From contig NC_043001.1 in assembly GCF_006345805.1 (NCBI RefSeq), positions 98,580,001-98,644,000 on the forward strand: 64,000 nt of DNA, read 5' to 3'. Below the pieces are notes generated by a model, which saw only the letters and a list, made by a program, of their open reading frames with translations, was not told the origin of the DNA and made no database searches. Positions 9,257-53,690 of this stretch are shown piece after piece. This DNA comes from Octopus sinensis. Taxonomy: Eukaryota. The position numbers and the translations under genes are program-made. Numbering within the stretch: the first letter of the stretch is position 1; each line of letters opens with the position of its first letter.

Positions 9257-9882
9257 TATACATTTTGATTTAGAGATAGGAGGCCCCTTCATCTCACCAT
9301 ATAAAAAAGAATTTTTATTTTAAATACCTACTGTTTTATAACTTGGTTACACGTGTTTCATGAGGTACATTCCCCGGTTCCCTAACCACTCCGTGTTTTG
9401 CTGGAACCCTTCTTAAAATGTAACCCCAATCATCATCCCTTATATCACTTTATCATCGTTCAATACTATAAACTATATTTTAATTTTTTTTAAACCCTTA
9501 AGTATGTGTAAAATAGGTATGTTTAAATTAGGTTCGCTAGACCCTAGAGTACAAGCCATAATTCAGATAAAAATTCAAATAAAAAGTTACAAAAATAAAG
9601 TAAGAAATAAAAAATAAAAATGCTAAAAAAATATACGAAAAATTTTTTTAAAAATTAAAATATAGTTTATAGTATTGAACGATGATAAAGTGATATAAGG
9701 GCCTGATGACTGGGGTTACATTTTAAGAAGGGTCCCAGTAAAACATGGAGTGGTTTAGGAACTGGGGAATGTACCTCATGAAACATGTGTAGCCATGTTA
9801 TAAAACAGTAGGTATTTAAAATAAAAATTCTTTTTTATATGGTGAGATGAAGGAGCCTACTATCTCTAAATTAAAATATATA
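9257..9882. repeat. Fold-back element (arms about 230 bp, spacer about 150 bp) with hammerhead-like cores
   Basis: 9269-9494 is the reverse complement of about 9647-9870. Lies next to (TA)n. CTGATGA at 9703 and GAAACATGTGTA at 9780. Confidence 0.85.
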
Positions 9883-9977
9883 TATATTTTTTTGTGTGTA
9901 TATATATATATGTATATATGTATGTATGTACATATATACATATATATGCATATATTTATATATACATATATACATAC

Positions 9978-10039
<62 letters not shown>

Positions 10040-10067
10040 ACACACATATATATATACATATATATAT

Positions 10068-10442
10068 ATCATCAGCGTTTAGCGTCCGCTTTCCATGCTA
10101 GCATGGATTGGACGGTTCAACTGGGGTCTGGGAAGCCAGAAGGCTGGACCAGGCCCAGTTTGATCTGGCAATGTTTCTACAGCTGGATGCCCTTCCTAAC
10201 GCCAACCACTCCATGAGTGTAGTGGGTGCTTTTTACGTGCCACCGGCACAGGTGCCAGACGAGTCTGGCAAACGGCCACGATCGAATGGTGCTTTTTATG
10301 TGACACTGGCACAGGGGCCAGGCGAGGCTGGCAACGGCCACGAACGGATGGTGCTTTTTACGTGCCACCGGCACGAGGCCAGTCGGGGCGGCGCTGGCAA
10401 TGGCCATGAACGGATGGTGCTTTTTACGTGCCACCGGCATGA
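10068..10442 (-). mobile_element. RTE LINE 3' UTR fragment
   Basis: Near-identical to 4780-5130. Confidence 0.85.
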
Positions 10443-10518
10443 ATACATATATATACATATGTACATACATGCAAATATATATATATATATATATTTACAT
10501 ACACATATATATATATAT

Positions 10519-10556
<38 letters not shown>

Positions 10557-10559
<3 letters not shown>

Positions 10560-10932
10560 CAATAATAAATCTCTGAGTGAGGTATAAACAGTAGCTGCAC
10601 GACATCGCGAAGTATATTTGCCACTTAAATGTGGCTAACCCTTAAGGGTGGATGCTACTGTAGCTTGTAGCCCCAGAAGGACACCTCCTCCAGCTGGCTA
10701 TTAACACACTTTCTGTGCCCTATCAGTATTTGAAAGGGAAAGCCATCCTTCCCATCTTCAATCTGATATGATACATACGGACTCGAGTTTCTGGGTACTG
10801 ACCCGTCATTAGCGTGTGACAATCACCAATTACTGATGAAAAGTGGGTTCCCTTTGCAAATATATATCTTTTTCCAGTGACGAAAAGTCACTGATATCGA
10901 AAATGTGTAAACAAGCAATAATAAATCTCTGA
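10557..10932. repeat. 356-nt unit bounded by a 20-bp direct repeat
   Basis: AAGCAATAATAAATCTCTGA at 10557-10576 and 10913-10932. Internal hairpin CAGTGAC-GAAAA-GTCACTG. Confidence 0.7.
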
Positions 10933-12371
10933 TTCTGGACCATGGAATATCTGTTTTTGGCTATGGTTGCCATTTAGTGGTAGGTGCTTTTGCAGCTAAG
11001 GCACACCCTCTGCATGCTTTCACTATTTCTTAAATGTCACAGTCCATTGCTGCCTAATATACATAGCTTCTCATTAACGATTTTATTCTCGAAAGCCTTG
11101 GGAGACCAATGTGAAATTCCTTTAGTAATCTCCTCTGTAGTATGGCTGGCACTACGACTCTTTTGTGCGTACATCAATGCACTGTCACACATTGAGAATA
11201 GGTTTGAATTTGCGTTGCACATATTTCTATCTCTTTTAGCCTTCAGCATTTCTCTCATTTTTTTAATGAATTGATTGTCTTCTTATTTTAATTTTGTCTT
11301 GTAATGTGACTGGCAGTTCACATATGACATTACACAAAACATTTTTAATTTAATTTTCTGCTCGCAACGCAACAAACACATTTTCAAATGGTTCAGCATT
11401 TTTTGAAATCAGTCTAGAGAAACAATCAGCAGGTCCTAATTTCTTAGATGGTATATACTTTATCTTAAAATCATAGTTTAATAATAAAGTACCCCAACAT
11501 TGAAACTTATTAGCAGTATGGGCAGGGATTACTTTCTTCAACCCATATATAGATAATAACAGACAATGATCAGTCTGTGGTCAAAAACTTCTACTGCGTA
11601 AAAATCTATGCAATTTTTGTTATGGCAAAAATAATTGCTAGAGCCTCTTGCAAAGTTGTTATATTTGTCAGATGGACTACACTTTTAATTGTGTCTGCTC
11701 TCGACAGATCTGGTCAACATTCATTTCTATCAAGGATTTGTCCTAAATATTTTATTCTTGATAAGAAAAATTCACACCTTTCTTCACTCAAAGTAAAGCC
11801 ATAATCCCTAATTTTTTTTTCGAACACATATTTTACATGCTCTACATGTTGATCCCTGGATGTTAATGAGTATATCATCCAGCTATTGAATTGTGAATTC
11901 AGTCCACTAACAATCACTGGTGTGACTTTTTAACCAAATGGTAACCTGTTGTATTTATACTGTCCCTTATGTGTATTAATTGCTATGTATTTAGAGCACT
12001 CACCATCTACTCTAATATGCTGGTATGCATCAGAGAGATCCAATTTAGAAAATATCTTGCCACTGTTTAAGTTTGCAAATATGTCCTCTGGAGTAGGTAG
12101 CAGATAGTGAAACATTTTAAGACAGTCATCTAAACCAGTGCAAAAATCAGCACACACTGTGATTTTATTATTCTTTTTCTTAACATATACAGTTGGTGAT
12201 GCCCATTGACTATATTCCACTCTTTGGGTAACTCCAATTTTTTCTAATCTCTAACTCAGTTTATCTGTTTTAATGCTGCAAATGATGCAGTTCATTTTAG
12301 TTTAAATACCAGTATGGCATTTTCTTTTACTTGAAACTTCACCTTTGTTTTGGAGCACAGACCTAATTCAT

Positions 12372-12571
12372 CAGACAGAACCTCAGAAAAAGTCTTTAAA
12401 AATTTTTATTTTAATTCATCTGACAACTTATTTCTACTAGTAGAAAAAACATTCACATTTTTACAGAAAAGCAGACAGAACCTCAGAAAAAGTCTTTTAA
12501 AATTTTTATTTTAATTCATCTGACAACTTATTTCTACTAGTAGAAAAAACAGTCACACTTTTACAGAAAAG
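12372..12571. repeat. 100-bp tandem duplication inside Gypsy pol
   Basis: CAGACAGAACCTCAGAAAAAG...TTACAGAAAAG occurs at 12372 and 12472. Confidence 0.9.
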
Positions 12572-14083: not shown

Positions 14084-14577
14084 ATACCCATTACAAAAAG
14101 CTTTGCCATAAGTCATTTGTATGACACACAATTAAAAGTTTTGGTACACCAATATAAATGTCACTGGTGTTCTCCATTCTCAATCTTCTGTGAAAGCATG
14201 TCCATTTGTGGGGAAATATTACCTTACTTGGAAGCAGGTGAGAGTTGATGACAGGAAGAGTATCCACCTGTAGATTAATTATGATTTCTACATCCATTGA
14301 GGATGCATACCTTAGTTTTCTTACTTCTCTTTCTTCTCATTCCAGTTTTTGCATCTATCTTCTTCACAGTTTTCTTCTCATTTTTTCTCATGTTATCACA
14401 TAGACCAATATCCTGGTTCTCAAATACACCTAATGGCATACACTGAACCTGAAAGATTTCCTTGGTGACATATAGCATATCATATAAATCTGCCAAATTA
14501 TTGTATCTCTACAGCATGAAACTATTAGTAGGTCTTTTTTAAATTCTGTATACATACATATATACACACATACATAT

Positions 14578-14808
14578 ATATATTAAAAATGGGGAATGCC
14601 AGTTTATGGGATTACCTTAGGTTTCCTGTCCATAAAGGGTTTAATTTTATGACTTATCCTCAAATCTCAAAAATCTGTTGGCCCATGACCTCTTAAAAAT
14701 GGGCCAACAGGTTTTGGGATCTGATGATACACCATAAAGCTAAACCCTTTATGGATAGGAAACCTAAGGTAATTCTATCAACTGACCTTCCCTATTTTTA
14801 ATATATAC
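14578..14808. repeat. Fold-back element in (TA)n
   Basis: Arms mirror around about 14690 (CTGTTGGCCCAT / ATGGGCCAACAG; TTACCTTAGGTTTCC / GGAAACCTAAGGTAA). Confidence 0.88.
14716..14776 (+). ncRNA. Type I hammerhead ribozyme motif
   Basis: Stem I GGGAT/ATTCT, core CTGATGA, stem II CCATAAAG/CTTTATGG, GAAA, near-palindromic stem III ACCTAAGGT, GUA cleavage triplet. Confidence 0.72.
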
Positions 14809-14895
14809 TGCTTTACATCTAAAGGTGTGCTTCTTTCGGATTTGTTTACTAAAAATTATATATATATATATATATAGATATATATATATATATAT

Positions 14896-18274: not shown

Positions 18275-18472
18275 GTTAATCCAAACGTGAAGAGAAAACA
18301 CAACAACGCGTGGACGTGGAACAAGTATAGTGTTATTGGACACTCAGGAAAGGAAAGAAAGAAGGAGGATTTAATGTTTTGAGCGGAACTCTTCGTCAGA
18401 AACATAGAAAAAGGAAAGGTCCAAGGAAGGGAAGACGGAGAAAGAAAATCACCAATGAAACACACGTGGTCA
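18275..18472 (-). repeat. Short (TA)n-embedded repeat with a decayed hammerhead core
   Basis: Minus strand CTGACGA-AGAG-TTCCG-CTC-AAAAC (GAAA mutated) at about 18371-18407. Related fragment at 30150-30250. Confidence 0.55.
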
Positions 18473-18647
18473 CATATATATATATATTAAAATATACATA
18501 AGTATTTATATATATATATTCATAAAACATACTATATATGCATTCATATATGTATATATATATATATATATGTACTGTTAGTAATAAAATAGAAGTATTA
18601 TTTCTAAATCTCTCCTCCAGGACAGCCACATTATATGTATATATCCT

Positions 18648-19782
18648 CATCATCGTTTAATATCTGCTTTCCATGCTAGCATGGGTTGGACGATTTGACT
18701 GAGGACTGGCGAACCAGATGGCTGCACCAGGCTCCAATCTTGATCTGGCAGAGTTTCTACAGCTGGATGCCCTTCCTAATGCCAACCACTCCGAGAGTGT
18801 AGTGGTTGCATTTACGTGCCATCAGCATGTGGGCCAGTCAGGTGGTACTGGCAATGGCCATGCTCAAATGGTGTTTTTTATTGCCACCTGCACAGGAGCC
18901 AGTCCAGCAGCACTGGCAATGACCTCACTTGAATGATTTTTTCACGTGCCACCGGTACAAGTGCCAATAAGGCGACACTGGTAACGCTCGAATGGTGCTT
19001 TTTACATGCCACCAGCATGGAAGCCAGTTAGCCGCTCTGGCAACGATCATGCTCGGATGGTGCTCTTAGCACTCCACTAGCACAGATGCCAGTCATTAAA
19101 TTTTATTTCGATTTCACTTGCCTCAACAGGTCTTCACAAGCAGAGTTTAGTGTCCAATGAAGGAAAGGTATGCATAAGTGGGCTGGTTACACCCCTGGCA
19201 TAGGCCACAAGGTTATGGTCTCATTTGGCTTGCCGGGTCTTCTCAAGCACAGCATATTTCCAAAAGACTCGGTCACTAGTCATTGCCACAGGTTCCCTCA
19301 GCCGCTAGGGTGTGGCACTTTTTCACACAGCTATCCTCATCCATTCTCGCCACATGACCATACCAGCGCAGTCGTCTGTCTTGCACACCACATCTGATGC
19401 TTCTTGGGTCCAACTTTTCTCTCAAGGTACTTTCACTCTGTCAAGTATGCACACTGACATTACACATCCATCGGATCATACTGGCTTCATTCCTTGTGAG
19501 CTTACGCATGTCCTCAGCAGTCACAACCCATGTTTCACTGCCATGTAGCTTGGCTGTTCGTACACATGCGTCATACAGTTTACCTTTTACTCTGAGCAAG
19601 AGGCCCTTTGTCACCAGCAGAGGTAAGAGCTCTCTGAACTTTGCCCAGGCTATTCTTATTCTAGCAGCTACACTTTCAGCACACCCTCCCCCGCTACTGA
19701 CTTGGTCACCTAGGCAATGGAACTTATCAACTACTTCTAGTTTTTCTCCCTGAAATGTGGCGGAAGTTGTTCTCTGCATATT
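18648..19782 (-). mobile_element. 5'-truncated RTE LINE with internal deletion
   Basis: ORF 19441-19779 GEKLEVVDKFHCLGD...ARIRIAWAKFRELLPLL, plus 3' UTR repeats. Confidence 0.9.
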
Positions 19783-19903
19783 TGTATGTATATAAGTAAA
19801 TATTTACATATATCATTAATATGATTTAAAATCTATTTTCCATGCTGGCATGGGTATATATATATATATATATATACTTTATTTAAAGTAGCAGAAAATT
19901 CAA

Positions 19904-19953
19904 CAAAATCTGTTACTCTGAGTTTCTCGTTGCCGTTCATCAGACAGTTTTTG
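19904..19953 (-). ncRNA. Minimal type I hammerhead ribozyme motif
   Basis: Minus strand CAAAAACTGT-CTGATGA-ACGGCAACGA-GAAA-CTCAGAG-TA-ACAGATTTTG: stem I pairs 9 of 10, stem III CTC/GAG, GUA site, weak stem II. Confidence 0.72.
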
Positions 19954-19979
19954 TTAGAATGGAACCGATATATCAATTC

Positions 19980-20034
<55 letters not shown>

Positions 20035-22132
20035 CATATCTTGGCACTATGGACTGAAAGGAGGGAACATCAGTCTGATGAAGCCAATTGTCCGTAGGTA
20101 CCAGCAGTAAGGTTAGTTTACATTAGGTGTGGTTAATATCAACAATTACATTACAAAAGACTGAAGTAAAATACAGTAGTGCTTTTAATCAAGCACACTA
20201 TCCAACCTGACAGTGAAAAATAAATGTATACTGTAAATATACACTATAATACAGTAAATTCAACATTTTTAATTTAAAACCATGGATGGTGAAGAGGTGT
20301 TGATATGCCATGATTTTATCTGCTGCTTCCAAAATCCGTTAAAAGGAGGTCCATAGTATCAAGGTATGAGTATATATATATGCGTGTGTGTGTGTGTGTG
20401 CACACACATACATAGAACAAAAGGATAGAAAGGTACACAACAGGTATCAACTCAGATTATTCAGATTATGATATAATCTATACGACATATATAGAAAGCA
20501 AATGCATAAAGGAGTATAAATATCAAGAGATTAGTAAAAGTTCCACTATGGGAAGTTCTTAGTTTGGTAGGGAGAAGAAATATATCGCTGGTAAAAATCT
20601 TGTAAGTGAAAGAGAAGAAAAAAGCTGGGCATATTTTCACTGACAGCTGTTTCAAGAATATTTGCATATTGGGAAAAAATGTAGATTTCTGCATGTTGTC
20701 TACATCCAAAAATATTGTAGTACCCTATTTTGTCAGGCAGTTGGATGCCTGACAAGGAATTTTGTCTATGTTAGCAAACAGCTGCTTGTCTGTTTTTGTA
20801 TACTACAATGCACAAATTATGAATAAAATACCATGCCACTAAAACATATGTAGCATGGATTGAACTACTATTGCTCAATCATCTCCTTTATTATATATTT
20901 ATGTTGGGTGTGTGAGTGTATAAAATACTGAAATTCAAATTCTGTTTCTCTGTATGTGTATTCATTGTTTTTCGATGAAACTACACACTGTAACAATAAA
21001 ATGACTCAACATTTCTTCTTCTAAACATAATTCCTTATGGCTACAAAAAATTTAAGGGAACCTGATATAAGCCTCAACACAAAAGAATTTTGCTCATTAT
21101 TATATTAATACTTTCCAAAAATTTTTACCATATATGAATAAAAAAACAAAATGAATACTCTAGTAGTACTAACACATCCACATACACATTTACATATAAG
21201 CACACATGCGCATACACACATATCCATACACCCACACAAACACACACACACATACAACAGTGATATTGACAGACTTTCTCAATAAAAAGAGGAAGAGAAT
21301 TAAAATCAGTACAGACAGCTTTCAAGTGCTGTATGATATCACACAAATTGCACCAGTTAAGTAATGGCAAGAAAAATAAACACATCAGCTAAATGAAAAC
21401 ATGAAGTTGATAACATCCTGCAGATTGGTGGAAAAATCTTCAAGAGACACTCACTTCATGATGACTTCCCATATGAATCCAGATGTGTGGGACAAATGTA
21501 TCTCAGCAAAAAACTGGAAGAACACTTTGCATAACACAAAAAGGTTATGCATAGATATATTTTCAGTAAACTTGTAGAGGATAATATTAACATGAAGTGT
21601 TGCCCTTTTTGAATTTGTGACCATTAAATCATGTCACATCTCAATCCAAGAATAGTAAATAACTCAAAAATACCTAAAATACAAATGGAACAATAAGGCC
21701 CTTAAACTTTCAAGATGCAACCACAAAATATCCTATCTTTATGATTCTGGGAAAGTTGTTCACATCTGCAAAGTAGCTAATCTCTATGATAAAACATGAT
21801 TTTTTTTTTCAGTTCCAAATAACTATATCAGGCTTGTTATGCTTGCATTTAATTAATGGTTTGATGGGAATGTTCCATTAATATTTCTTTTGTTGCTATG
21901 TATAGATTCAATGGTAGAGGTGTTGTTTATATTTATCCAAAAGCAGTCTTTTCAGATGGCATTGTATACTGTTTTAGCAACAACACCATGCCACAATGGT
22001 AGCATCTCAATGACAATTTCTAGCAGCTGCTGGTAACATGTTATGTCATTCATAGAATTAATAATGATAGAGTAATGACTGAAGTGAGCAGGGAGGGGAG
22101 GAGGGCACTATGTATGTATGTATGTATGTATG

Positions 22133-24021: not shown

Positions 24022-24025
24022 TAAA

Positions 24026-25320: not shown

Positions 25321-25974
25321 TGTTACAGTCTTGTTCTATTTTTTGTCTGCAACAGCTGTGGGTGAGGCAGAGGTCACTCAGGTTGAGAGGCAGGAGTCTC
25401 AGAACCTGTGGCTACATATGGAGGATTACTTTGTATTTACATCAAGGGATAAGAGGAAAGCCAAAATCCTGTACTCCCAGTATGTCATGTACCAGCCCGA
25501 GGAGACCACCAACAAAGGACAAGCAGTAAGCCTCTACAACTTGAAGTCACATGTCAAGAGGAAACACCCAGTGCATGCCATCTAGTTTGAGGAGATAATC
25601 AAGGCTGGCTCTTCCCAAGGGAAACACAGGCAATCTTCTGGTAGCAGTGCCAGTAGCCAGTTGTTGCAGCCATGTGCAAAGAAAGCACACCAGCCCAGCA
25701 TTGTTGAAGCATTTGCCCAAACTGCTGGCGTCTGCCAGTCTATGATAGACAGAAGGATTGTAGACCTGTTTGTTGACAACATGCTACCACTGCATGTGGT
25801 GAAGTTCTCCACCTTGGTCAGCCTGATCAAGACACTGAACCCCAGGAAGACATTGATGCTCCACAGCACTCTGGGCAGAGTGATTATGGCCAGCCATAAA
25901 CAGTTGGAGGAGTATCTTTCAAAGTATTTATGAATTAAAATTATACAAGATTATTAAATTATTATTATGGTGTA

Positions 25975-26208
25975 CAGTAATCCCTCAACTATTAGGAGTG
26001 TTATGTTCCAAAATCTCCCACAGAAATAATTAAAATCCCAAAAATATAAATACCTATCAACTGCAGAAACCTGGATATAATGAGGAGTCTGCAATATAAA
26101 TTTACATATATTAGCAAGAAAAATCCGCAATGTACTGAGAGCACAATAGGTAAACTATGATGTACTGAGTGCGCGATAGGTGAACTGCGATATGGTGAGG
26201 GATTAATG
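25975..26208. mobile_element. Tc1/mariner-type (pogo/Tigger-like) MITE
   Basis: TA|CAGTAATCCCTC ... GAGGGATTAATG|TA inverted termini. Confidence 0.75.
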
Positions 26209-26330
26209 TATTTCATATTTTCTTAATTTAATTTAATTATTTATTAAATAATTATTTTCTTAATTAATGTAATAAAATGTATAATAGCTAACTGTAATAA
26301 ATGTTATAATATATGGTATATATATATATA

Positions 26331-26639
26331 TCACCGTGACTGACCAGGCTATCAGATGTTGCTACACATCGCTGGTCACAATGCACTTTGCATTGATTTA
26401 GCCTTCAAATGACATCACCCCGCTGGCTAAGCGAGCAGGCCAACAGAAGAAAGAGTGAGAGAAAGTTGTGGCAAAAGAGTACAGCAGGGATCGCCACCAG
26501 CCCCTGCCGGAGCCGCGTGGAGCCTTAGGTGTTTTCGCTCAATAAACACATAAACACTCACAACGATCAGTCTGGGAATTGAAACCGTGATCCTACAACC
26601 GCAAGTCCACTGCCCTAACCACTGGGCCATTGTGACTCC
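26331..26639 (-). mobile_element. tRNA-derived SINE family D
   Basis: Minus strand TGGCCCAGTGGTTAGGGC (A box) and GGTTTCAATTCCC (B box), then a non-tRNA body. Flanked by microsatellites. Confidence 0.8.
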
Positions 26640-26979
26640 ACATGTATGTATGTATGTATGTATGTATGTATGTATGTATGTATGTTTGTATGTATGTATG
26701 TATGTATGTATGTATGTATGTATGTATGTTTGTATGTATGTATGTATGTATGTATGTATGTATGTATGTAGGTAGGTAGGTAGGTAGGTAGGTAGGTTTG
26801 GGGATGATGTACAGGTATTATATATTAGAAGAAATGAGGTACTCAGAAATCTGGATGGCTTTATATTTAGATATTTATTAGTATGTTACATGTTTTTATA
26901 AATCATATATCATATAATTAGCATTTTCGTCCACTCTAGTGGAGTCTTCAAATTGAACTTCAATTTGAAGACTCCACTA

Positions 26980-27425
26980 GTGGAAGGTGTTTATAAGCCA
27001 TTTAAGAAACACACAAAATCTGTTAGATTCACTTCAACATTTAAATTTAATTTGTCAAAATATTTTCGTTGCTTTGAGACCGCGACCAGTTCACTGACAA
27101 AATTCCATGTTGCATGCTATCTAGTTTGAGGAGATAATCAAGGCTGGCTCTTCCCAACAGAAACACAGACAATCTTCTGGTAACAGTGCCAGTAGCCAGT
27201 TGTCGCAGCCATGTGCAAAGAGATGTAGCACGGAATTTTGTCAGTGAACAGGTCATAGTCTCAAAGCGCCGAAAATATTTTGACAAATTAAATTTAAATG
27301 TTGAAGTGAAAATAACGGATTTTGTGTGTTTCTTAAATGGCTTATAAACATCTTCCATGCTGCAATTGTTTTCATTCCAGCACATGACCTCAGATCAGGT
27401 CACATGCTATGCAAGTACATCTCCG

Positions 27426-27426
<1 letters not shown>
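26980..27426. repeat. Fold-back element (same family as 52573-52909) with captured hAT DNA in the loop
   Basis: Arms 26980-27115 and 27223-about 27358. The loop 27111-27221 matches 25572-25682. Confidence 0.9.
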
Positions 27427-27459
<33 letters not shown>

Positions 27460-27893
27460 CACTCATGATTAAGTCTGCACAGTCAAAACAGCAGTCTTTA
27501 ATGAAAGAACGAATAAACAAACCCTAAGTTCAGAACTTATCAAATTCTGACTGTCATTCCATCCCTCATCTCAGTTATTCATCACCCCCAACACATCACC
27601 TATCAAGGTAGTGTCACTATTTTCAAAAGTTTAATAACAAGGCTTTGAATTATAAGTAATATTTCCATGAATTTAGAACAGCCTAGTAACAAATGTTAAA
27701 CTACAATTTGAGATTTTTATAAACAAAATATGGTTATAAGATACTGCAATCAAATGTCCTGCCTTCTTCCTATCCGCAAAAAATTATACAAACCACGTGC
27801 TCACAAAAACCATTGCCGGTTGCATGAAGATGCAGATGAGAGGCTATTTTCTTTTTTAGTAGGCCTTTATCATACTCTGCATCAGTTTATATA

Positions 27894-28300
27894 TAGTGAC
27901 AGTGAATTATTTTCCTTGTTGGTTTTAAATTGTTACTAGCCACCTTGATTATTCTATAATTTTTCACATTGCCATTTTGTGAAATCAGTCACTGATTCCA
28001 ATGGCATTCTCCATAATATTGACAGGGCAAGTTGGCCTCTACCAGCCATGATGGACTGAGCATTACTGATGAGTATTAATTTCCTATATGAAATTAGCAT
28101 ACTAATTTAATGCATCTTGCACAGAGTGGAGAGGGCTTTCTCCTCTGTCAATACAAAGAGACCATGTCTTTTTGTGGCTAAGAAGTTTATGACTCCTATT
28201 TCTAGCAATGCTGGTTCTCACTGTATCCTTGTCACTCTTAGTGACAGTGAATTAGTTCCTTGTTGGTTTTAAATTGTTGTTAGCCACCTTGATTATTATA
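27894..28300 (+). repeat. 345-nt unit with about 60-nt terminal direct repeat (retrozyme/pLTR-like)
   Basis: TAGTGACAGTGAATTA..CCTTGTTGGTTTTAAATTGTT..TAGCCACCTTGATTATT at 27894 and 28239. Ends in (TA)n. Confidence 0.8.
28060..28113 (+). ncRNA. Monomeric type I hammerhead ribozyme motif
   Basis: GCATTA-CTGATGA-GTAT(taatttcct)ATAT-GAAA-TTAG(cata)CTAA-T-T-TAATGC: 6-bp stem I, 4-bp stem II, stem III with tetraloop, AUU site. Confidence 0.8.
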
Positions 28301-30247
28301 TATATATATAATATATATATAATTTTAAGTTTTTAACTTTACAACTTATGTCTCTTTACAATTTAACTTCTTTTAATTACAGTTTGCTCAAGGATGTCCC
28401 CTGGGTGGCGACCTCCACAGACTGTTGGTCAGCTCACAACACATCATCCTAGCCTGATCTCACCTCAGAGGACATCACACTTTGATGTTCTCACCCAGGC
28501 TATGGTGGACATTCACTACAAGTTCCATCTGCAAGACAAAATGGCCAGGACCATGACAGACATAAAAACTTTGTTAAGACATTTATGCAATTTGGTACAG
28601 AAGTTGAACTCTTGCTAGACATTCCTGAGGCTGCTGCTGATCTGGACATAGAAGGCATCAAGGATGTGAACCTGGATGTGGATCCCAAGACTGGGGATGT
28701 GAACAAAGTTGAGTACATTTCGGTTGATGCCATCCCTGACAAGTCCAAAAACCTGGGCCTAAGCCTGCCAGTGCACATGAAGTGTACAACCTATACCTTC
28801 AACTTGGTAGCCAGTGTGGATACCAACAAGGCTCTTGACAGCACTTTGCTCAAGTCAACCTACAGGAAGGCTATGTCCAAAGCACAGTGGCTATGGAAAC
28901 TGCAGAGCCCCAGCACAGTGGCCACAGACAGCATTCTGGATACGTTAAAGAAGAGGTTTGTGGTCCCCAACAGTACCAGATAGAACTGTATGTATGACTC
29001 TGTTGTTGTCCTCAACAACCAGGAGAAGAATAGGGAACAGGGTAATGACACAGCTGAAGCAGTAGACCTTCACTAATTTTGATGTCGGCTTCCTGCCCAA
29101 GGCCTTGGATAAAAATCCAGGGGAAGGACTAGGATTATTTCAGGAACCTTCTGCCAACTGTAGTGGACACCATTATAAAGCTGAAGGGGGCCAAGTTCAA
29201 ATATCTCCTGTACTGCAGTCTTCTGGGAGACATGATACTGGCAAGCATCATGAAATGGTTTGGGCTTCTCCTAGATCTGGAGTGCCAACTGGCCACTGCC
29301 TTCCACCCCAAGTTTCACCTGTTCTGACTGGAGCAGTATAATAACAGCCAGGTTAGCAGAGTAACAAATGCCATGGAGACCATCATAGAAACAGCCCAAA
29401 TGGAGACCAATAAGGAAAGCAGTACCACCACCACCAGCAATGAGGATAAGGAAGATGATTTCTTCAGCAACATCACTCAGTTCTGGGAGAGCAGGAGCTA
29501 CAAGTCACTGAAATCTAAGGCGTAGAACTTGGTGAAGACCTGAATGGAGTCTGTCTTGAAGGAGGTACTGACTGAAGTTGCCTTTTTTGGAGGAGCAGGT
29601 CTTGATCAACCTGTTCACTGACATCCCATCTAGTGCTGCAGTTGAGCACCTATTCTCTATAAGCAAAGATATTTTGAAGGTCAAGAGAGCCACTCTGTCA
29701 GATGGAAACTTTGAGAAGCTGATATTTATGAAGGGCAACCAGCATCACATTAAGGTGATGGAGAAGGCCCAGCCAGAGTAGCACACCTTGATAATGCTAT
29801 ACTATGCCTTTTTGATTCATTTAATACTCTTTGTACAGTAAATAAAGTGTATGTTGACTGAAAAACTAAAGTTTAATTTCATTTGTTCATTTAATTATTT
29901 GCATACACCTTGATCATCATCTGATCTTAGCATGCTATACCTTTTTAGAAAGCTCTATATCTAAGCTACAACATGAAAATTTCAGCTCTCTAGGTCTGTT
30001 TTTAGGGGGTTTAGAGCAAAACAAACCAAACCGATACTAAATTCATATGATAAAAGTTAGCGGTCACCATTTAGCATTAGCTCCCATTAATTTTTTACCT
30101 GCTTAGGTTGAGAGTTTGTGAAGCTAACTTTTTGGTTAGCTGAGCCCACCATCCTCCTTCTTCCCTTTTTTCCTGAGCGCCCAATAATACTTTATTTGTT
30201 CCACATCCTCGCGTTGTTGTCTTTTTGTTTTCTTGTTTGGATTAACT

Positions 30248-31660: not shown

Positions 31661-32728
31661 CCATACCTCTTAATTTTGCATTAAATTTACATCGGGGTTA
31701 GCATGTTTTTGTTGAAGCTGCACAAGGTCTTCTATAATTCTATTCAATCAAGATTTATGTTAGTAGATGAAGTAAAGAGTGTAAATTAGAAAGATGTATA
31801 ATGTATTCGACCACATGCATTGCTTATAAAAATAACCCTATGCTCTTAAGGAAAAAAAAAAAACTTACGTATTATTTATAAAGGAAAACCTGACATTTAT
31901 TTGCAGCTAAATATTTTCTGAAGTTAAAAATAATCTGAACTATTTACATCATGTTATCCCATACAAGCGAGTGTCCTTTTGTTTATTTTATCAGTCACTG
32001 AATAAATGTTTTCGATAAATAGTATAGGTGTTTCCTGTATCAATAAAAGTTATATAGAACTGCAACAAGCATCTTCGTTGGAAATACTGAAAAAATATAA
32101 CTCTTCATTTTCATTATTTTGACTATAGGGACAAGGCATCAAAGTTTGTGGGGAGGTGGTTAGTCGAATAAATCAACCCCAGTAGTTGACTAACAATAAT
32201 TAAAGCAACATTGTTCCCACCCCAATCCTACAACAGTTACTTGTTTGTGTTAAATATAAGATTAGCGACTCCGGTTGCAGAGATACATAGTTATCACTGA
32301 CTTTACAAACAGGAGGAAAGGATCTTTCCTTCAAAATGAAAAGATCCGGAAATAATTGTTGAGGAATGTTAGCACTTCACACCATTTAAACAACTTGCTT
32401 TCGGATACGGATGAAACAAAAAGCCAATTTGCATTCCCCTTTTGACAAGAAAATAATTGAATGCTTACAATCGAATGGGATATATTCAAATTTCCTTCCC
32501 TGGAGGTCACTTCCGGCAGTTATTTCGAAAACACAGACCTTAACTTTGAAACGTAAGAAAATTTCCTCAGCAGGCCTTATTGATGATACATACATACATA
32601 TGTGTACTTTTCTATTCATTTCGGTCATTTGACTGTGGCTATGTAATACAGTTCTATATTTTGAGAGATGAGGAATTATGTACATTATTTGCATTTGACG
32701 GATATTTGTCCTCATCTTGTTTGTTGTT

Positions 32729-32774
32729 GACACAACGTTTCGGCTAATATACTCTCCAGCCTTCTTCAGGTGCC
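32729..32774 (-). ncRNA. Minimal (dimer-type) hammerhead downstream of the Penelope ORF
   Basis: Minus strand GGCAC-CTGAAGA-A-GGCT(12 nt)AGCC-GAAA-CG-TT-GTGTC. Palindromic AACGTT replaces stem III. Confidence 0.68.
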
Positions 32775-32914
32775 CTGGGGAAATTTCGATGTTAATATAT
32801 TCAGGTCACTGCCTGGAATCGAACTCTTAACCACTACACCATATGCCCGAGGAGTGCAATTGTGGAGTGAATTTTAGGGCTTATAAATCTAATATTTTCC
32901 TATCCTTCCCTAAT

Positions 32915-34370
32915 ACTGGTTCCTATATGTTATTTACATCTGCATTAGGTCTGCTTGGGAGGTTATGTTCTAGTATGTGTGCTGCTTCTTTTAGTTTTCG
33001 TATTTTCCAGTGGTGTTCACTGTCTATTATTTTAACTTCATCCCACAGGGGGAGGTGGTCTCCGTTTTTCCATACATGATCAGCTATACCCAATTTATCA
33101 ATATCTCCTTGTGTCACAGACTTGCGATGTTCCTCTACCCTTACTTTGAGGGGCAGCATGTTTCGCCTTTGTATACATACCACAGCTGTATGGGATGGAG
33201 TACTCGCTGTCTTTGGTCATATTCTCTTCTTTTGGTAGTTTTACTTGAAGGAGATATTTGCAAAGTGTTGTATTACTTTTGAATACTGTCCTGATGTCAT
33301 ATGGGCCACATATCTTTTGTATCTTTTCAGAGAGGCCTTTCACATAAGGTAGACAAACTGTGGTCAGTTTGGCACAGGAGTGGCTGTGTGGTAAGTAGCT
33401 TGTTTACCAACCACATGGTTCTGGGTTCAGTCCCACTGCATGGCATCTTGGGCAAGTGTCTTCTACTATAGCCTCGGGCCGACCAAAGCCTTGTGAGTGG
33501 ATTTGGTAGGCGGAAACTGAAAGAAGCCTGTCGTATATATGTATATATATATGTATGTGTGTGAGTTTGTGTGTCTGTGTTTGTCCCCCTAGCATTGCTT
33601 GACAACCGATGCTGGTGTGTTTATGTCCCCGTCACTTAGCGGTTCGGCAAAAAGAGACCAATAGAATAAGTACTGGGCTTACAAAGAATAAGTCCCGGGG
33701 TCAAGACGCTCGATTAAAGGCAGTGCTCCAGCATGGCTGCAGTCAAATGACTGAAACAAGTAAAAGAGAGAGAGTTCATGGGTTTCATCCCCACTTCATA
33801 ATTGGAGTGGATAGTATATTTTGGGGGTAATTGATGCTTAATAGATTGTTACTTAGCTTGATCATTTCTTTGTGGCATGTATCAGGATCGCTACTTATAT
33901 TCTTTGCTCGGTGTTTTAGGCACTGAGCAATCCCTCTCTTTACACTGTATGGATGGTGGGAATTAAAGTTGCGGTATTGTCGACTTTGCCTTTCATCCTT
34001 TCGGGGTCGATAAATTAAGTACCAGTTAAGCACTGGGGTCGATATAATCGACTTAATACCTATGTCTGTCCATGTTTGTCCCCTCTATGTTCAGCCCCTT
34101 GTGGGTAATAAAGAAATAGGTATTGTCTAGTGAAGGTTGGCTTGCGGTATATGGATGTTCCGGATCTATGCTTGGTGTGTGTTATTAATATGTCCAGGAA
34201 TGCTAGCTGATTGTCTTTTTCCTTTACCATTGTGAACTGTATGGATAGCTTTATTGAGTTCACATGATCTTACAGTATTTGGACATCTTCCTGGTGGGGC
34301 CAGAGTGAAAAGGTGTCATCAACATATCACAGCTATAGGGTTGGTTTTAGTGGTGTTGGTCCTAAAAGCT
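32915..34370 (-). mobile_element. Decayed Penelope-like element (RT C-terminus plus GIY-YIG endonuclease), interrupted by two SINEs
   Basis: YVDDTF, IQFTMVKEKDNQLAFLDILI, YRKPT, SHHPYSVKRGI, YSIPYSCG, LKVRVEEHRK..IADHVWKNGDH..WDEVKIID. Confidence 0.88.
33371..33774 (+). mobile_element. SINE family B, full length
   Basis: GGCACAGGAGTGGCTGTGTGGTAAG...GGGTTCAGTCCC...CTTGGGCAAG...GACTGAAACAAGTAAAAGAG. Confidence 0.9.
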
Positions 34371-45808: not shown

Positions 45809-45916
45809 TCATTTTTACTTGTTCCATTCATTCATATATTTATATTTACACACACACACACACACATATATATGTGTGTGTGTATACACACACACACATT
45901 AATATATATATATATA

Positions 45917-47183
45917 TTGGGTTGTCCGGAAAGTTCGTGCCGATTTTTAAAGGAAAGAAAAAGGTCAATAAATACTTGCCATTACATTTGTAACCAACCA
46001 AATACGAACTATTTTGTTGCACAATGCATCTCCGTCTTTCCTTTAACTTGAAAATACCCTCTTCCCAGAATTGAGGTAGTTTCATGGCAAAGAATTCATA
46101 AAGGTATCTTTTTACGTCATCCAAAGAATTGAAATTTTTATCATTAAGACTATTCTGCAGAGACCTGAATAAGTGGAAATCCGAAGGAGCAATATCTGGT
46201 GAATATGGAGGGTGAGGTAACACATCCCAGCCAAGCTGCAGCAATTTTTGTCTGGTTCCCAAAGAAATGTTCGGTCTTGCATTACCATGTTGGAAAACAA
46301 CACCCTTCCTGTTGGCCAATTCTAGATGTTTCTCTTGAATTTCTGCTTTTAATTCGTCCAGTTGTGTGCAGTATTTCTCAGAATTAATTGTCTGGTCACT
46401 TAGGAGAAGCTCATAGTACAGAATTCCTTTCCAATCCCACCAGACACAAAGCAAGACTTTTTTAGGGTGAGGACCTGCTTTTGGGGTGGCTAAGGGTGGC
46501 TTGTCGCTTACTCTAGGATCACTTTCTCTGAACATTTCGGAAGATAATCCATTTCTCGTCACCTGTCACAATTTGCTTTAAAAAAGGCATGGTTTCATTC
46601 CGTTTATAAAGCGAATCACAGATGGAAATGCGATCCAAAAGGTTCTTCTCACTCAACTCATGTGGTACCCAAACGTCGTAGCGATTTGTGCATCCAAGCT
46701 TTACCAGGTGCTCATGAATGATGGATTTTGATAGGTTGAGGCTTTCTGCCAATTCTCTGGTTGTGCAATGTGGGTTATTGATTTGGTCATCATCTGTAGT
46801 GGATGGTCTGCCTGATTGCTCTTTATCAATAAGGCTGCAATCTCCAGCTTGGAACCTTGCAAACCACTTCCATACCGCACTTTTGGATAAAGAAACATTA
46901 CTGTAAACTGCACATATTTCTTTGGTTGCTTGTGAGGCATTTTTCCCTTTACGGAAAAAGAAAAGCATCAAGTGCCGAAAATGAACTTTCTTATCTTCCA
47001 TTTTAAAGGGTTATAGAATTAACACAGGTTATAGGAACATAAACCTTCTTCCATGAAAAGATAGGTTAAACTGTGCTCAAAATGGAGGTGTAGTCAAGTC
47101 CTATTTTATGGACTCAGCCATGTTCTGAAATAAGTCGAAAAGTAAGCTACTATAAATCGGCATGAACATTCTGGACAACCCAA
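45917..47183 (-). mobile_element. Near full-length mariner (mellifera-subfamily-like), frameshifted transposase
   Basis: TIRs TTGGGTTGTCCGGAAAGTTCGTGCCGATTT / AAATCGGCATGAACATTCTGGACAACCCAA within (TA)n. MEDKKVHFRHLMLFFFRKGKNASQA, WVPHEL, VTGDEKW, HGNARP (catalytic D lost), YSPDIAPSDFHLF. Confidence 0.95.
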
Positions 47184-48182: not shown

Positions 48183-48216
<34 letters not shown>

Positions 48217-48284
48217 TTCAACAACATTGAGGAAAGGCCCCGATAGGCCATTCGACCCACTAGAAAGAGCAGCCAAGACTCAAA

Positions 48285-48803
48285 CCACTAAATAGTAGTA
48301 ATTCAGAAATTAAAGGAAAATTAAAAAACATTTACCCTAGTTATCTTTAGACAATGCATTGTTTTGACGTTCTTTATGGCAAACCAGCCTAATTAAATTA
48401 AATTAAATTTAATCAAGTCAATCTACCAAAGAATCTCATCGGTAGAGAAGCCAGGAGGAATAGATATACACGAGGCAGCAGCATTTGTGCCTCGGGGATA
48501 TATAATTCTGAAATTGAATCAGCAGTTTATATTTGCTGCTGATAAGTTGGCGCGATTACGGTGGTTTTGAAAATTTAGGGTATATATTCCCGAGGCACAA
48601 ATGCTGCTGCCTCGTGTATATCTATTCCTCCTGGCTTCTTTACCGATGAGATGGGCCTTTGGTAGATTGACTTGGTTAAATTTAATTTAATTTAATTAGG
48701 CTGGTTTGCCATAAAGAACGTCGAAACAATGCATTGTCTAAAGATAAATAGGGTAAATGTTTTTAATTTTCCTTTAATTTCTGAATTACTACTATTTAGC
48801 GGT
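48285..48803. repeat. Large fold-back element (arms about 220 bp)
   Basis: 48288-48505 mirrors 48581-48800. The spacer holds its own small hairpin TCAGCAG..CTGCTGA. Confidence 0.92.
48638..48743 (+). ncRNA. Type I hammerhead motif, U4C core variant with long stem II
   Basis: CTTTA-CCGATGA-GATG...CGTC-GAAA-CAATGCATTG-TC-TAAAG: stem I CTTTA/TAAAG, palindromic stem III, GUC site. Confidence 0.75.
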
Positions 48804-49859
48804 TCTTATTTTAACTTGTGTCCATTGTTTTTCAATCTTTCATTACACATCTGTGACCGCTTCAGCAACACTTTCTGTCCTCATGTGTGCTCCTACTCTG
48901 TTTAGTCCATTCACAATATCTGTTTCAACACACAGTTTCACATCAGGAATCTTGCAACACAAATTCATAAATGTATATACATACACACACACACACATAT
49001 ATATATATAAAATGTATATACATACACACACACACATATATTTATACTCACACACACACATGCACATGCACACACACATACACGCACACACTAGTGTGAT
49101 GAATGGAAGAATGAGTACTCAGTATAGGAGAGTCCAAATAAGCATAGCCCCCACCCACAAGTGAGTATGACAATTAGCTTGTACCATATTTTCACTTATT
49201 GTTTTAGGTGCCTATGTTGTTGTGAGTCAACACAGACACTCTATTAGTGCTTCCCATCCTTGACCTAGTAAAATATCAAGGATGTAGCTGCTGGATAGAG
49301 TAAGGTAGTTGAACTCAGCACACAAAGATCCAGAACAAATGCTGCAAGGCATCCAGTCTAATGTTTTTACAGTTTCACCATTTCACAGACCCTGCATTTG
49401 TACGGTTTTTTTTTTATAAATCCCCAAAAATATGAAAGCTAAGTTGACCACAGCATGACCTGAAATTAAAGTACAGAGTGATGGAACAAATATAATCAAA
49501 TCATTATTGCTGTTAATGTCTTTATATTTTAAACTTAGCTGGTACTCATTTACAGCTGAGCAGCATGGAGAAGCATGAAATGATATACTTTGTTAGAGGT
49601 CTCAATGCATTGTCCAGTCTAGGAATCAAACCCACAGCTTTATGATTGGGAACTCAACACCCATATCATTATGCTATATAACTTCACTAGAAGGTAGAGT
49701 AGAAATTATTATTCATTTGACTTACCAGTATATGCTTGTGAATGTTAACAATGCCACTCTACAAACAAGAAACCTGAGGTATTAGCATGATACCCCAGAT
49801 TTATGTAAGTTGCGTAATAAATAATATGTGTGTACGTGTGTGTGTGTGTGTGTATCTAA

Positions 49860-50235
49860 AGGGAGAAGGGTACAAAGTAGTACTTGCATTGCTTAACATA
49901 AGAGTCAAAACGACTCAATTAGCCACAAAAAAACACTTTCATTGATAAGTTGAAGAAAAGACTGACGAGAATTGAGATGCAATGCATCGGAATCTGAAAT
50001 CACATGATATGGATATATCTCCTACCTCAGTAGGGAGCTTGTCCCACTGCAGTACAGAGCTTTCTCACTTCCCCTCTTTCATCAACTTATTAAGATAGTT
50101 CTTTTTGTGGCTAACTGAGTTGTTTTGACTCTTATTTCTAGCAATGTTGGTACTACTTTGTACCTTTGTCACTTCAATGACATTTATAAATTTGCCTTTA
50201 GGTTTTAGTTGCTAATAAGCTAATAAGCCACCTAC
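49860..50235. repeat. Partial fold-back related to the 27894-28300 family
   Basis: 49868-49960 mirrors 50075-50170. The 3' part CTTTTTGTGGCTAA..TTTCTAGCAATG..AGCCACCT resembles 28168-28289. CTGACGA at 49962 and GAAATCACATGATA at 49996. Confidence 0.7.
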
Positions 50236-50283
50236 ACACATGCACACACACACACACACGCACGCACACACACACACACACAG

Positions 50284-51461: not shown

Positions 51462-51473
51462 TATATATATATA

Positions 51474-52561: not shown

Positions 52562-52572
52562 TATATATATAT

Positions 52573-52909
52573 ACGGAGATGTACTCGCATAGCAAGTAAT
52601 TTGATCTGAGATCGTGTGCTGAAACGAAAACAATTGCAGCGTGGAAGGTGTTTATAAGCCATTTAAGAAACACACAAAAGCCGTTCGATTCACTCCAACA
52701 TTTAAGTTTAATTTGTCAAAATATTTTCGTCGCTAAAATCCGCGACCTGTTCACTGACAAAGTCCGTGCTGCACGGACTTTGTCAGTGAACAGGTCGCGG
52801 ATTTTAGCGACGAAAATATTTTGACAAATTAAACTTAAATGTTGGAGTGAATCGAACGGCTTTTGTGTGTTTCTTAAATGGCTTATAAACACCTTCCACA
52901 CTGCAATTG
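52573..52909. repeat. Near-perfect 279-bp palindrome plus a one-sided overhang, in (TA)n
   Basis: 52631-52769 mirrors 52771-52909 around a 1-nt centre, with one mismatch seen. Confidence 0.95.
52780..52827 (+). ncRNA. Hammerhead motif with G3:C8 swapped core (mirror copy 52713-52760 on minus)
   Basis: TTGTCA-GTGAACA-G-GTCGC(ggatttta)GCGAC-GAAA-ATAT-T-T-TGACAA. Confidence 0.62.
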
Positions 52910-52924
52910 GTTTGATATATATAT

Positions 52925-53225
52925 ATATATATGAATTAGAAAAAAAAAACACCTTTTATAAATTCAATAATGAAAAATTAAATTATACCATTTAGAAAAA
53001 TTACATCTTATAGAAAGATCAAATATAAGATAAAACATATAACAATGATTAAGTAAAGTGCAAAATATATACGCTTTATTTATTATTTTGCACTTTACTT
53101 AATCATTGTTATATGTTTTATTTTATATTTAATCTTTCTATAAGATGTAATTTTTCTAAACAGTATAATTTAATTTTTCATTATTGAATTGATAAAAGGT
53201 GGTTATTGTTTCTAATTTATATATA
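52925..53225. repeat. AT-rich fold-back (arms about 140 bp) in (TA)n
   Basis: AACAATGATTAAGTAAAGTGCAAAATA mirrored by TATTTTGCACTTTACTTAATCATTGTT. No hammerhead core seen. Confidence 0.9.
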
Positions 53226-53271
53226 TATATTATATTTAGTGAAATTTGATTTAGTATTTCTAAATTGAATT

Positions 53272-53462
53272 TACTGGCTCCGTGCTGGTGGCACGTAAAA
53301 GCACCCACTACACTCTCGGAGTGGTTGGCGTTAGGAAGGGCATCCAGCTGTAGAAACTCTGCCAGATCAAGGCTGAAGCTTGGTGCAGACATCTGGTTCG
53401 CCAGCCCTCCGTCATTCGTCCAACCCATGCTAGCATGGAAAGCAGACATTAAACAATGATGA

Positions 53463-53466
<4 letters not shown>
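53272..53466 (+). mobile_element. RTE LINE 3' UTR fragment
   Basis: GGCACGTAAAAGCACCCACTACAC...GCATGGAAAGCAGACATTAAACAATGATGAT. Confidence 0.85.
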
Positions 53467-53489
<23 letters not shown>

Positions 53490-53500
<11 letters not shown>

Positions 53501-53690
53501 GAAAGAATGGAGTCGAACGACGATTTAACAAAATTCCTTTATTCTCGACATATGTTTCGAAGACTGCATATTCTCAATTCCGAAGGAATAAAGGGTGCAT
53601 TATGCCGCCTTCTCATCAGGAAAAACATATGTCGAGAATAAAGGAATTTTGTTAAATTGTTGTTCGACTCCATTCTTTCATTTATTTATA
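53490..53690. repeat. Fold-back (arms about 67 bp) next to (TA)n
   Basis: 53491-53557 mirrors 53623-53689. Confidence 0.9.
53542..53624 (-). ncRNA. Type I hammerhead motif, canonical core
   Basis: Minus strand TTTTC-CTGATGA-GAAGGCGGCATA...TATGCAGTCTTC-GAAA-CATATG-TC-GAGAA: long stem II, palindromic ACATATGT, GUC site. Confidence 0.78.

What the first reader, a model, noticed from the sequence alone, without database searches (positions are those of the whole stretch)
9257..53690. Many hammerhead-ribozyme-bearing short elements, mostly fold-backs, in (TA)n microsatellites
Seen: at least seven sequence-distinct short elements fold into type I hammerheads (14716+, 19904-, 28060+, 32729-, 48638+, 52780+, 53542-), with decayed cores at 9703+, 18371-, about 26920- and 49962+. 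Most lie in long inverted repeats in or beside (TA)n, and most have a palindromic stem III. Established: Penelope-like elements carry minimal hammerheads in their pseudo-LTRs that work as dimers through a palindromic stem III, PLEs often leave inverted pLTR structures, and animal retrozymes are small non-coding hammerhead retroelements. Inference: this is a diverse set of non-autonomous, microsatellite-targeting PLE derivatives, about one per 6 kb, invisible to ORF-based annotation.
Basis: partly seen in the sequence, partly recalled or inferred. Interest (0 to 1): 0.88.

Follow-up and report, generated by a model that had tools for sequence, protein, structure and literature searches.

The report
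Penelope retroelement ends with swapped hammerhead
These short repeats in TA microsatellites are mostly the cut-off ends of Penelope-like jumping genes, plus a few non-coding relatives, each carrying a hammerhead self-cutting RNA motif; one family with thousands of copies has its key core base pair swapped (G3-C8 instead of C3-G8) and is predicted to still cut RNA.

Summary
In detail: all 11 named sites belong to multi-copy families with type I hammerhead motifs and palindromic stem III, far above shuffles (7 hits vs 0 in 60 shuffles). The interpretation needs correcting. Five of the seven main sites (14716, 19904, 32729, 52780, 53542) are 3' pseudo-LTR ends of coding Penelope-like elements (PLEs): longer copies continue into a GIY-YIG/RT frame. 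Only 28060, 48638 and 49962 look truly non-coding (345-480-nt head-to-tail units, retrozyme-like). Fold-backs, two alternative 3' ends (tail) and (TA)n targets are known PLE traits. New here: (1) the 52780 family (at least 5,306 copies) has a G3-C8 core, while three sister families carry C3-G8 or U3-A8 in the same fold; I found G3-C8 only as an engineered mutant, but could not read one key survey; (2) 26 of 27 fold-backs pair one tailed with one untailed arm; (3) short copies start at one fixed site, often after an extra G, not at the cleavage site; (4) the 28060 unit rides in a hAT transposase intron. Density is about four times the genome average. No cleavage was tested.

The parts
9167..9883 (.). 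Fold-back of family F9703: left arm (-) with tail, right arm (+) without; long-stem-II hammerhead at 9699-9794+ (stem III decayed in this copy); parent ORF not found
14577..14843 (.). Fold-back of family F14721, hammerhead 14716-14776+; 3' end of a coding PLE (endonuclease frame ends about 120 nt upstream in L098)
18275..18480 (-). About 205-nt unit of family F18399 between (TA)n; minimal hammerhead 18370-18403 decayed at two CpG sites; family motif intact in 10 of 15 loci; fixed 5' start; parent ORF not found. Partial second copy at 30151-30246+
19872..19986 (-). Short pLTR end of coding PLE family F19943 between two (TA)n runs; hammerhead 19910-19948 with 2-bp stem II and tetraloop; not a fold-back
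26794..26980 (-). Family F26920 element with 45-nt palindrome; hammerhead-like motif 26916-26954 whose family core has U3 opposite G8; parent not found
26980..27427 (.). Older copy of the G3-C8 family as fold-back (motifs 27051-27101- and 27237-27287+); its 111-nt centre (27111-27221) is a 95% copy of 25572-25682, 1.5 kb upstream
25345..29781 (+). Decayed hAT-like transposase gene; one intron (about 25924-28382) holds the F26920, F52780-type and F28066 insertions
   Evidence: (Pfam Dimer_Tnp_hAT only E=0.08); hAT motifs recalled
27894..28302 (+). Retrozyme-like non-coding unit (345-nt period, 65-nt terminal direct repeat, then (TA)n); canonical-geometry type I hammerhead 28060-28113
32660..33367 (-). 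5'-truncated coding PLE: RT-thumb/GIY-YIG remnant 33367-32926 followed by pLTR with minimal hammerhead 32729-32774
48204..48804 (.). Fold-back of non-coding family F48643 (about 480-nt head-to-tail unit); hammerhead 48637-48744+ with U4C core and 10-nt palindromic stem III; damaged copy 48344-48448-
49856..50220 (.). Fold-back of non-coding family F49962 (related to F28066); junction falls at the core and removes the 5' strand of stem I; family motif intact
52572..52913 (.). Near-perfect fold-back of the young G3-C8 family F52780: tailed left arm, untailed right arm; motifs 52712-52761- and 52779-52828+; 3' pLTR of a coding PLE
53490..53850 (.). Fold-back of coding PLE family F53619: hammerhead 53542-53624-, inverted partial arm with 146-nt longer tail on +
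3036..3960 (+). Outside the finding: remnant of a sister PLE (endonuclease end 2995-3176) with a U3-A8 hammerhead motif at 3830-3868, decayed at one CpG

Best explanation
The elements are insertion products of many Penelope-like retrotransposon families, mostly the 3' pseudo-LTR ends of coding elements plus a few non-coding retrozyme-like units, each with a hammerhead motif that likely cleaves only as a dimer. Shown: family membership, the link to RT/GIY-YIG frames, two fixed 3' ends per family, (TA)n targets, palindromic stem III. Inferred mechanism: the PLE protein nicks both strands of an AT-rich target and starts reverse transcription at two internal sites on the element RNA (as shown in vitro for the anole PLE). 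One nick primes at the tail end and the other at the inner site, and the two cDNAs join at their far ends through short homologies, which gives a fold-back with one tailed and one untailed arm. The short copies are likely made when priming occurs in the pLTR copy near the 5' end of the capped mRNA, so that the cDNA runs only to the transcription start; this explains the fixed 5' boundary and the extra G. The template was mostly uncleaved RNA. In family F52780 the core pair is G3-C8; sister families keep other Watson-Crick pairs there, so the pair is likely under selection and the ribozyme likely keeps some, probably reduced, activity.
For: Descriptor vs shuffles. Same-strand upstream PLE frames: 9 of 30 F52780, 8 of 20 F19943, 2 of 20 F53619, 1 of 20 F14721 loci; RT (YxDD) plus endonuclease in long copies; 32769 in the window. 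Two 3' ends 59, 146, 65, 66 and about 95 nt apart in five families. One tailed plus one untailed arm in 26 of 27 inverted F52780-family pairs (p 2e-7 against one half), in 10 of 10 distinct F53619 fold-backs, and in 7 of 7 distinct F9703 fold-backs, one with a shortened tail. 5' ends: 23 of 26 short arms in the unbiased set start within -2..+22 of one site 22 nt before the core; G precedes that site in 14 of 21 copies without genomic upstream sequence vs 19% G; 1 of 48 short arms is compatible with a start at the cleavage site. G3-C8: 5,306 exact pattern matches, reversed control 0; stems I and II are in the minimum-energy fold; sister families with 37-51% identical proteins read C3-G8 (22 of 23 loci with the motif; 18 of 20 in a second family) or U3-A8 (10 of 13); on 12 distinct hand-picked rows the 3-8 pair is paired in 12 of 12 (CG 6, GC 4, UA 2) and stem II in 60 of 60 cells with two pairs changed on both sides. 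Literature: tails, inverted 5'-truncated copies and (TA)n bias (PMC8557442, passages); two internal RT start sites, both strands extended, uncleaved RNA as main template, C3G/G8C partial rescue (PMC11167929, parts 1-2 read).
Against: No cleavage or RNA-end data: only assembled contigs were offered. Inside the G3-C8 family there is no covariation: 2 C3-G8 copies are seen and 2.4 are expected from independent decay. The cross-family covariation rests on four lineages, so two or three events, and on rows I picked. One young sister family has A9C, and other families lack the G10.1-C11.1 pair (F19943, F14721, F9703) or have U3 opposite G8 (F26920), so cores in these elements can drift. Pfam gave no significant hit for the PLE frames (RVT_1 E=0.004 for a homologue, below cut-off), so the RT/GIY-YIG call rests on motifs and domain order; the tblastn queries came from the same families. 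The extra G could be templated by the tail end, which is complementary to the 5' start. Some 5' ends are artefacts of my mismatch rule.
Confidence: 0.8

Rival explanations
1. All the short elements are independent non-autonomous families (retrozymes or SINE-like PLE derivatives) that copy themselves through their own short RNAs.
For: True for F48643, F28066, F49962: head-to-tail units of 345-480 nt and 0 of 20 loci each with an upstream PLE frame. F18399 has fixed ends and no parent found. Short F52780 copies share a fixed 5' start, as a SINE would.
Against: Short and long copies of F52780 and F19943 are 98-100% identical over the shared part and the long ones code. 32769 follows its ORF directly.
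Confidence: 0.12
2. The G3-C8 motif is a dead or nearly dead hammerhead carried along by an active PLE; the complementary swap is chance or reflects another constraint such as the overlapping promoter region.
For: Cleavage is not needed for insertion in vitro (PMC11167929). A young sister has A9C. The core lies 22 nt after the inferred start site. No C3-G8 sister lineage inside the family.
Against: Three different Watson-Crick pairs at 3-8 across four families; G3-C8 fixed through several subfamilies whose loop II differs; no variant at these two places among the 40 differences listed for runs of three organism labels (7 rows not shown, thin cover there).
Confidence: 0.35
3. Fold-backs arise after insertion or by snap-back of one cDNA on itself (or are assembly artefacts), not by priming at two sites.
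For: Centres often hold short palindromes or microhomologies.
Against: A snap-back or duplication would copy the same 3' end, yet 26 of 27 pairs have different ends; arms have diverged independently in old copies (83-96% identity); one centre is a copy of target-side DNA 1.5 kb away.
Confidence: 0.07
4. The motifs are chance matches in AT-rich, repeat-rich DNA or the elements are MITEs of DNA transposons.
For: Rfam lists no hammerhead; the descriptor gives 0-3 false hits per 400 kb at its looser setting.
Against: Shuffle controls; each motif is the family state in hundreds to thousands of candidate copies; arms vary in length from the 5' side and end in two fixed 3' termini; coding parents are RT elements.
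Confidence: 0.01

Closest known systems
Minimal hammerheads in the pLTRs of metazoan Penelope-like elements (Cervera and de la Pena 2014, PMC4209133; parts 1-2 of 4 read)
   Same: Type I motif near the 3' end, extra nucleotide between 9 and 10.1, palindromic stem III, mostly solitary copies from truncated PLEs, pairs on opposite strands 100-700 bp apart, natural U3-A8 variant.
   Different: G3-C8 core in F52780; U4C in F48643; A9C in a sister; several families lack G10.1-C11.1. That paper reports U3-A8 as the 3-8 covariant in the parts read.
Canonical C-terminal endonuclease PLEs: Penelope/Poseidon, Neptune, Nematis, Hydra (Craig et al. 2021, PMC8557442; abstract and passages read)
   Same: RT followed by GIY-YIG, 5' truncation, partial tandems, inverted 5'-truncated copy, optional tail at one end, (TA)n bias with a cysteine linker before the endonuclease.
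   Different: Tails here are 59-146 nt rather than 30-40 nt. The F52780 clade has a long stretch between the RT motifs ending in PSID and GGAIG, which recalls the IFD that the paper gives for Naiad/Chlamys, but its endonuclease is C-terminal; clade not determined here.
Poseidon PAc of the green anole (Frangieh et al. 2024, PMC11167929; parts 1-2 of 4 read)
   Same: Two RT start sites equal the tail; AT-rich target; uncleaved RNA as template; C3G/G8C double mutant partly active.
   Different: There G3-C8 is engineered. In the parts read the paper does not treat the one-tail rule of fold-backs or short pLTR-only products.
Animal non-LTR retrozymes (Cervera and de la Pena 2020, PMC7229834, passages; Li et al. 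bioRxiv 10.64898/2026.07.22.740005, part 1 and passages)
   Same: F28066, F49962, F48643: non-coding head-to-tail units of about 345-480 nt with type I hammerhead; proposed PLE-dependent.
   Different: Here mostly monomers to partial dimers with PLE-type tail, fold-back and (TA)n insertion; one unit was amplified as a passenger of a hAT intron. The word octopus does not occur in either main text.

Membership tests
Penelope-like element (C-terminal EN+) | Single ORF with RT followed by GIY-YIG endonuclease upstream of the pLTR | tested here: met
   Met for F52780, F19943, F14721 (RT and EN), F53619 and 32769 (EN only). By motifs; Pfam not significant.
Penelope-like element (C-terminal EN+) | Same, for F48643, F28066, F49962, F9703, F18399, F26920 | tested here: not met
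   0 of 20, 0 of 20, 0 of 20, 2 of 20 (neighbours), 1 of 15 (not shared upstream), 0 of 15 loci; only best-scoring loci with 1.5 kb flank examined.
Penelope-like element (C-terminal EN+) | Optional 3' tail (two alternative 3' ends) | tested here: met
   Five families tested, all bimodal.
Penelope-like element (C-terminal EN+) | 5' truncation with inverted or partial tandem copies | tested here: met
Penelope-like element (C-terminal EN+) | RT phylogeny placing it in a named clade | not tested
   No reference PLE proteins were at hand; homologues are unnamed.
PLE minimal type I hammerhead | Core CUGANGA ... GAAA ... UH | tested here: inconclusive
   Exact in F53619, F19943, F14721, F9703, F28066, F49962, F18399, 32769; variant in F52780 (G3-C8), F48643 (U4C), F26920 (U3 with G8).
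PLE minimal type I hammerhead | Palindromic stem III | tested here: met
   All 11 families.
PLE minimal type I hammerhead | G10.1-C11.1 pair closing stem II | tested here: inconclusive
   Present in F52780, F53619, F28066, F48643, F49962, F18399, 32769; absent in F19943, F14721, F9703, F26920.
PLE minimal type I hammerhead | Self-cleavage as a dimer | not testable with these tools
   Needs a bench assay.
Rfam hammerhead families | Covariance-model match | tested here: not met
   None among 75 matches at E<=1.
Non-LTR retrozyme (F28066, F49962, F48643) | Non-coding head-to-tail monomer of a few hundred nt with type I hammerhead | tested here: met
   Periods 343-345, 339-356 and 480-486 nt; no ORF.
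Non-LTR retrozyme (F28066, F49962, F48643) | [quoted passage not shown] | tested here: inconclusive
   Only partial tandems seen in 20 loci per family.
Non-LTR retrozyme (F28066, F49962, F48643) | Expression as linear and circular monomer RNA | not testable with these tools
   No raw RNA reads offered.

The most novel reading that the evidence does not exclude
An octopus-type genome holds a recently active Penelope-like family whose thousands of copies carry a natural, functional G3-C8 hammerhead, completing the C-G, U-A, G-C series at the core pair within one clade; and its insertions record a general PLE mechanism in which a protein dimer primes both target strands at the two start sites of one RNA, making one-tailed fold-backs and cap-marked pLTR-only copies.
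Probability: 0.4. Interest if true: 0.65.

Novelty: new variant of a known kind. Interest (0 to 1): 0.5.

Why it matters
The 3-8 pair is the tertiary pair that positions the general acid of the hammerhead; a natural G3-C8 lineage would widen search descriptors, which miss it today (Rfam and the strict descriptor both do here), and gives a natural series to test how much activity PLEs need from their ribozyme, an open question. The one-tail rule and the fixed, G-marked 5' start turn the unexplained inverted and pLTR-only PLE structures into testable predictions for the existing in vitro system. About 10 intact-looking motifs per 400 kb imply tens of thousands genome-wide (extrapolation).

Tried and rejected
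Rfam scan: no hammerhead. Pfam on PLE and hAT frames: nothing above cut-off; PDB search of a homologue: nothing. Covariation inside the G3-C8 family: rejected, C3-G8 doubles equal chance; a C3-G8 loose-end consensus from 3 contigs of run X13 may be such a decayed copy and is not used. First pair count used a mis-indexed structure; one search is the corrected one. Hammerhead cleavage as source of 5' ends: rejected for F52780 (1 of 48 compatible). Endonuclease hits near F9703 were neighbouring elements. Expression: no RNA holder listed, no evidence either way; a second read-laying on the hAT-intron unit did not complete, so splicing and circles remain open. Literature on natural G3-C8: searches (C3G+G8C+natural, 2 papers; one read, engineered; PMC8495972 seen as listing only; G3-C8, 1 paper, engineered, passages; G3C8, GUGANCA, U3-A8; 1 paper, U3-A8 only); Perreault 2011 passages report U3-A8. 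Lunse et al. (about PLE hammerhead variants) and Przybilski and Hammann 2007 are not held, and supplements were not opened; either could already list G3-C8. Hammerhead in a hAT intron: 0 papers with all four terms, a narrow search. Octopus+Penelope+hammerhead: nothing relevant in 4 listed. Earlier scan notes on this genome and sequence: none.
Full report
Observation. A strict type I descriptor gives 4 hits against a shuffle mean of 0.04-0.07. A version allowing any Watson-Crick pair at core positions 3 and 8 gives 7 strong hits against 0 in 60 shuffles. Rfam sees none. Seven of the eleven are fold-backs. The window lies in a 2.72-Gb genome; a protein named Octopus vulgaris by its source matches it at 99%, so the host is likely an octopus.

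Families. Each site belongs to its own repeat family with 298 to 4,564 first-look candidates (lower bounds, 40 scored per search; the 32769 family was not searched genome-wide but has 6 matches in 400 kb). In the family alignments the decayed window copies resolve into complete motifs with palindromic stem III. By the same rule the window has 8 motifs in 64 kb and 40 arbitrary 10-kb stretches have 12 in 400 kb (shuffles 0-3), so the window is about four times denser than average.

Coding or not. Longer copies of four families run upstream into a GIY-YIG frame on the same strand: 9 of 30 loci for 52780, 8 of 20 for 19904, 2 of 20 for 53542, 1 of 20 for 14716. Extended loci show RT before the endonuclease. 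The 32729 motif follows an RT-thumb/GIY-YIG remnant in the window. These are 3' pLTR ends of coding PLEs. The protein call rests on motifs and domain order; Pfam is not significant. Three families are non-coding head-to-tail units: 48638 (480-486 nt), 28060 (343-345 nt) and 49962 (339-356 nt), the last two related. They fit retrozymes, except that I saw only partial tandems. For 9703, 18371 and 26920 no parent was found.

Insertion anatomy. All five families tested have two fixed 3' ends and end next to (TA)n in 13 to 17 of 20 copies (26 of 30 for 52780), against 4.4% of window positions. This is the known PLE tail and microsatellite bias (PMC8557442, passages), and the tail equals the distance between two internal RT start sites (PMC11167929). 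In fold-backs one arm has the tail and the other lacks it: 26 of 27 inverted pairs of the 52780 family, 10 of 10 distinct 53542 fold-backs, and 7 of 7 for 9703, one with a shortened tail; the 48638 family has exceptions. I infer that the two nicked target strands prime at the two start sites and the cDNAs join at their far ends. One fold-back (26980-27427) has a centre copied from DNA 1.5 kb upstream, which fits joining by template switches.

Short copies. In the set chosen without regard to the 5' side, 23 of 26 short arms begin within -2 to +22 nt of one site, 22 nt before the core; 5 more arms are long. A G that the genomic upstream sequence does not have precedes this site in 14 of 21 copies. 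I read this as the capped transcription start: priming in the first pLTR copy of the mRNA gives a pLTR-only cDNA. The G could instead come from the tail end, which is complementary to this start. Only 1 of 48 short arms could start at the hammerhead cleavage site, so the template was mostly uncleaved, as in vitro.

The G3-C8 core. The 52780 family reads G-U-G-A-A-C-A where hammerheads have C-U-G-A-N-G-A. Everything else fits a PLE minimal hammerhead: 7-bp stem I, extra nucleotide, G10.1-C11.1, 5-bp stem II, GAAA, palindromic stem III; stems I and II are in the minimum-energy fold. The pattern occurs 5,306 times (control 0) and is fixed in subfamilies with different loop II (4,956 for the older loops). 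Within the family there is no covariation: 75 copies have C3, 169 have G8, 2 have both, and 2.4 are expected. Across families there is: three sisters with 37-51% identical proteins keep the same architecture with C3-G8, C3-G8 and U3-A8. On 12 distinct hand-picked rows the pair holds in 12 of 12 and stem II in 60 of 60 cells; this is two or three events, not twelve. The engineered double mutant partly restores cleavage in a PLE hammerhead. Natural U3-A8 is published. My searches found G3-C8 only as an engineered change, but the main survey of PLE hammerhead variants was not available. Against activity: a young sister has A9C, and other families here lack G10.1-C11.1, so these cores tolerate drift. 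I put some retained activity at about 60%.

A passenger. The 28060 unit lies in the single intron of a decayed hAT-like transposase gene, in sense orientation; 13 of 20 family loci share that context and free-standing copies exist. The hAT call rests on recalled motifs and a weak Pfam hit.

Verdict. The core variant and the insertion rules are new details of a known kind of system. Nothing here was tested for cleavage or expression.

Noticed in passing
window 25345-29781 (+); L457-L460: hAT-like DNA transposon whose intron carries a sense-strand canonical hammerhead unit; 13 of 20 family loci share this context, so the unit was likely amplified as a passenger.
   Followed up: partly
window 27111-27221: Centre of a PLE fold-back is a 95% copy of window 25572-25682 (hAT exon, 1.5 kb upstream), with short homologies at both joins.
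   Followed up: partly
window 3036-3960 (+); L317-L336: Sister PLE family with U3-A8 hammerhead; many genome copies begin at the same point inside the endonuclease region next to a 30-nt inversion, unexplained.
   Followed up: partly
L292-L316: Young coding PLE family (P0017 type, 3,581 candidates) whose hammerhead has C at position 9 in all 23 loci where the motif was found.
   Followed up: partly
L155:3835-5676; P0001, P0007, P0015, P0017: PLE clade with C-terminal endonuclease and a long insertion between RT motifs that recalls the IFD described for Naiad/Chlamys; homologues 42-50% identical and unnamed; clade not determined.
   Followed up: no
F19943 and F14721 (window 19910-19948, 14716-14776): Both have a purine-purine opposition in place of G10.1-C11.1, a 7-nt near-palindromic stem III and a GUA site; their RTs are of the same GLYRDD type.
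   Followed up: no
window 45846-47010 (-): Mariner-type transposase in two frames (PF01359 E=2e-22).
   Followed up: no
window 5304-5978, 19358-19803, 38626-39549: Fragments of an RTE-like LINE (label recalled from motifs).
   Followed up: no
window 121-441 (-) and 22088-22402 (+): Frames with motifs recalled from PLE RT and thumb; not confirmed by Pfam.
   Followed up: no
L033:9-2971 (-), just beyond the window end: Nearly intact non-LTR element with RT and a C-terminal CCHC/restriction-like domain (label recalled).
   Followed up: no
window 23745-24525, 24560-25336, 52950-53201: Further local inverted repeats without a hammerhead hit.
   Followed up: no
L423, L443, L450, L451, L455: Additional, unrelated hammerhead families in arbitrary genome stretches.
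   Followed up: no
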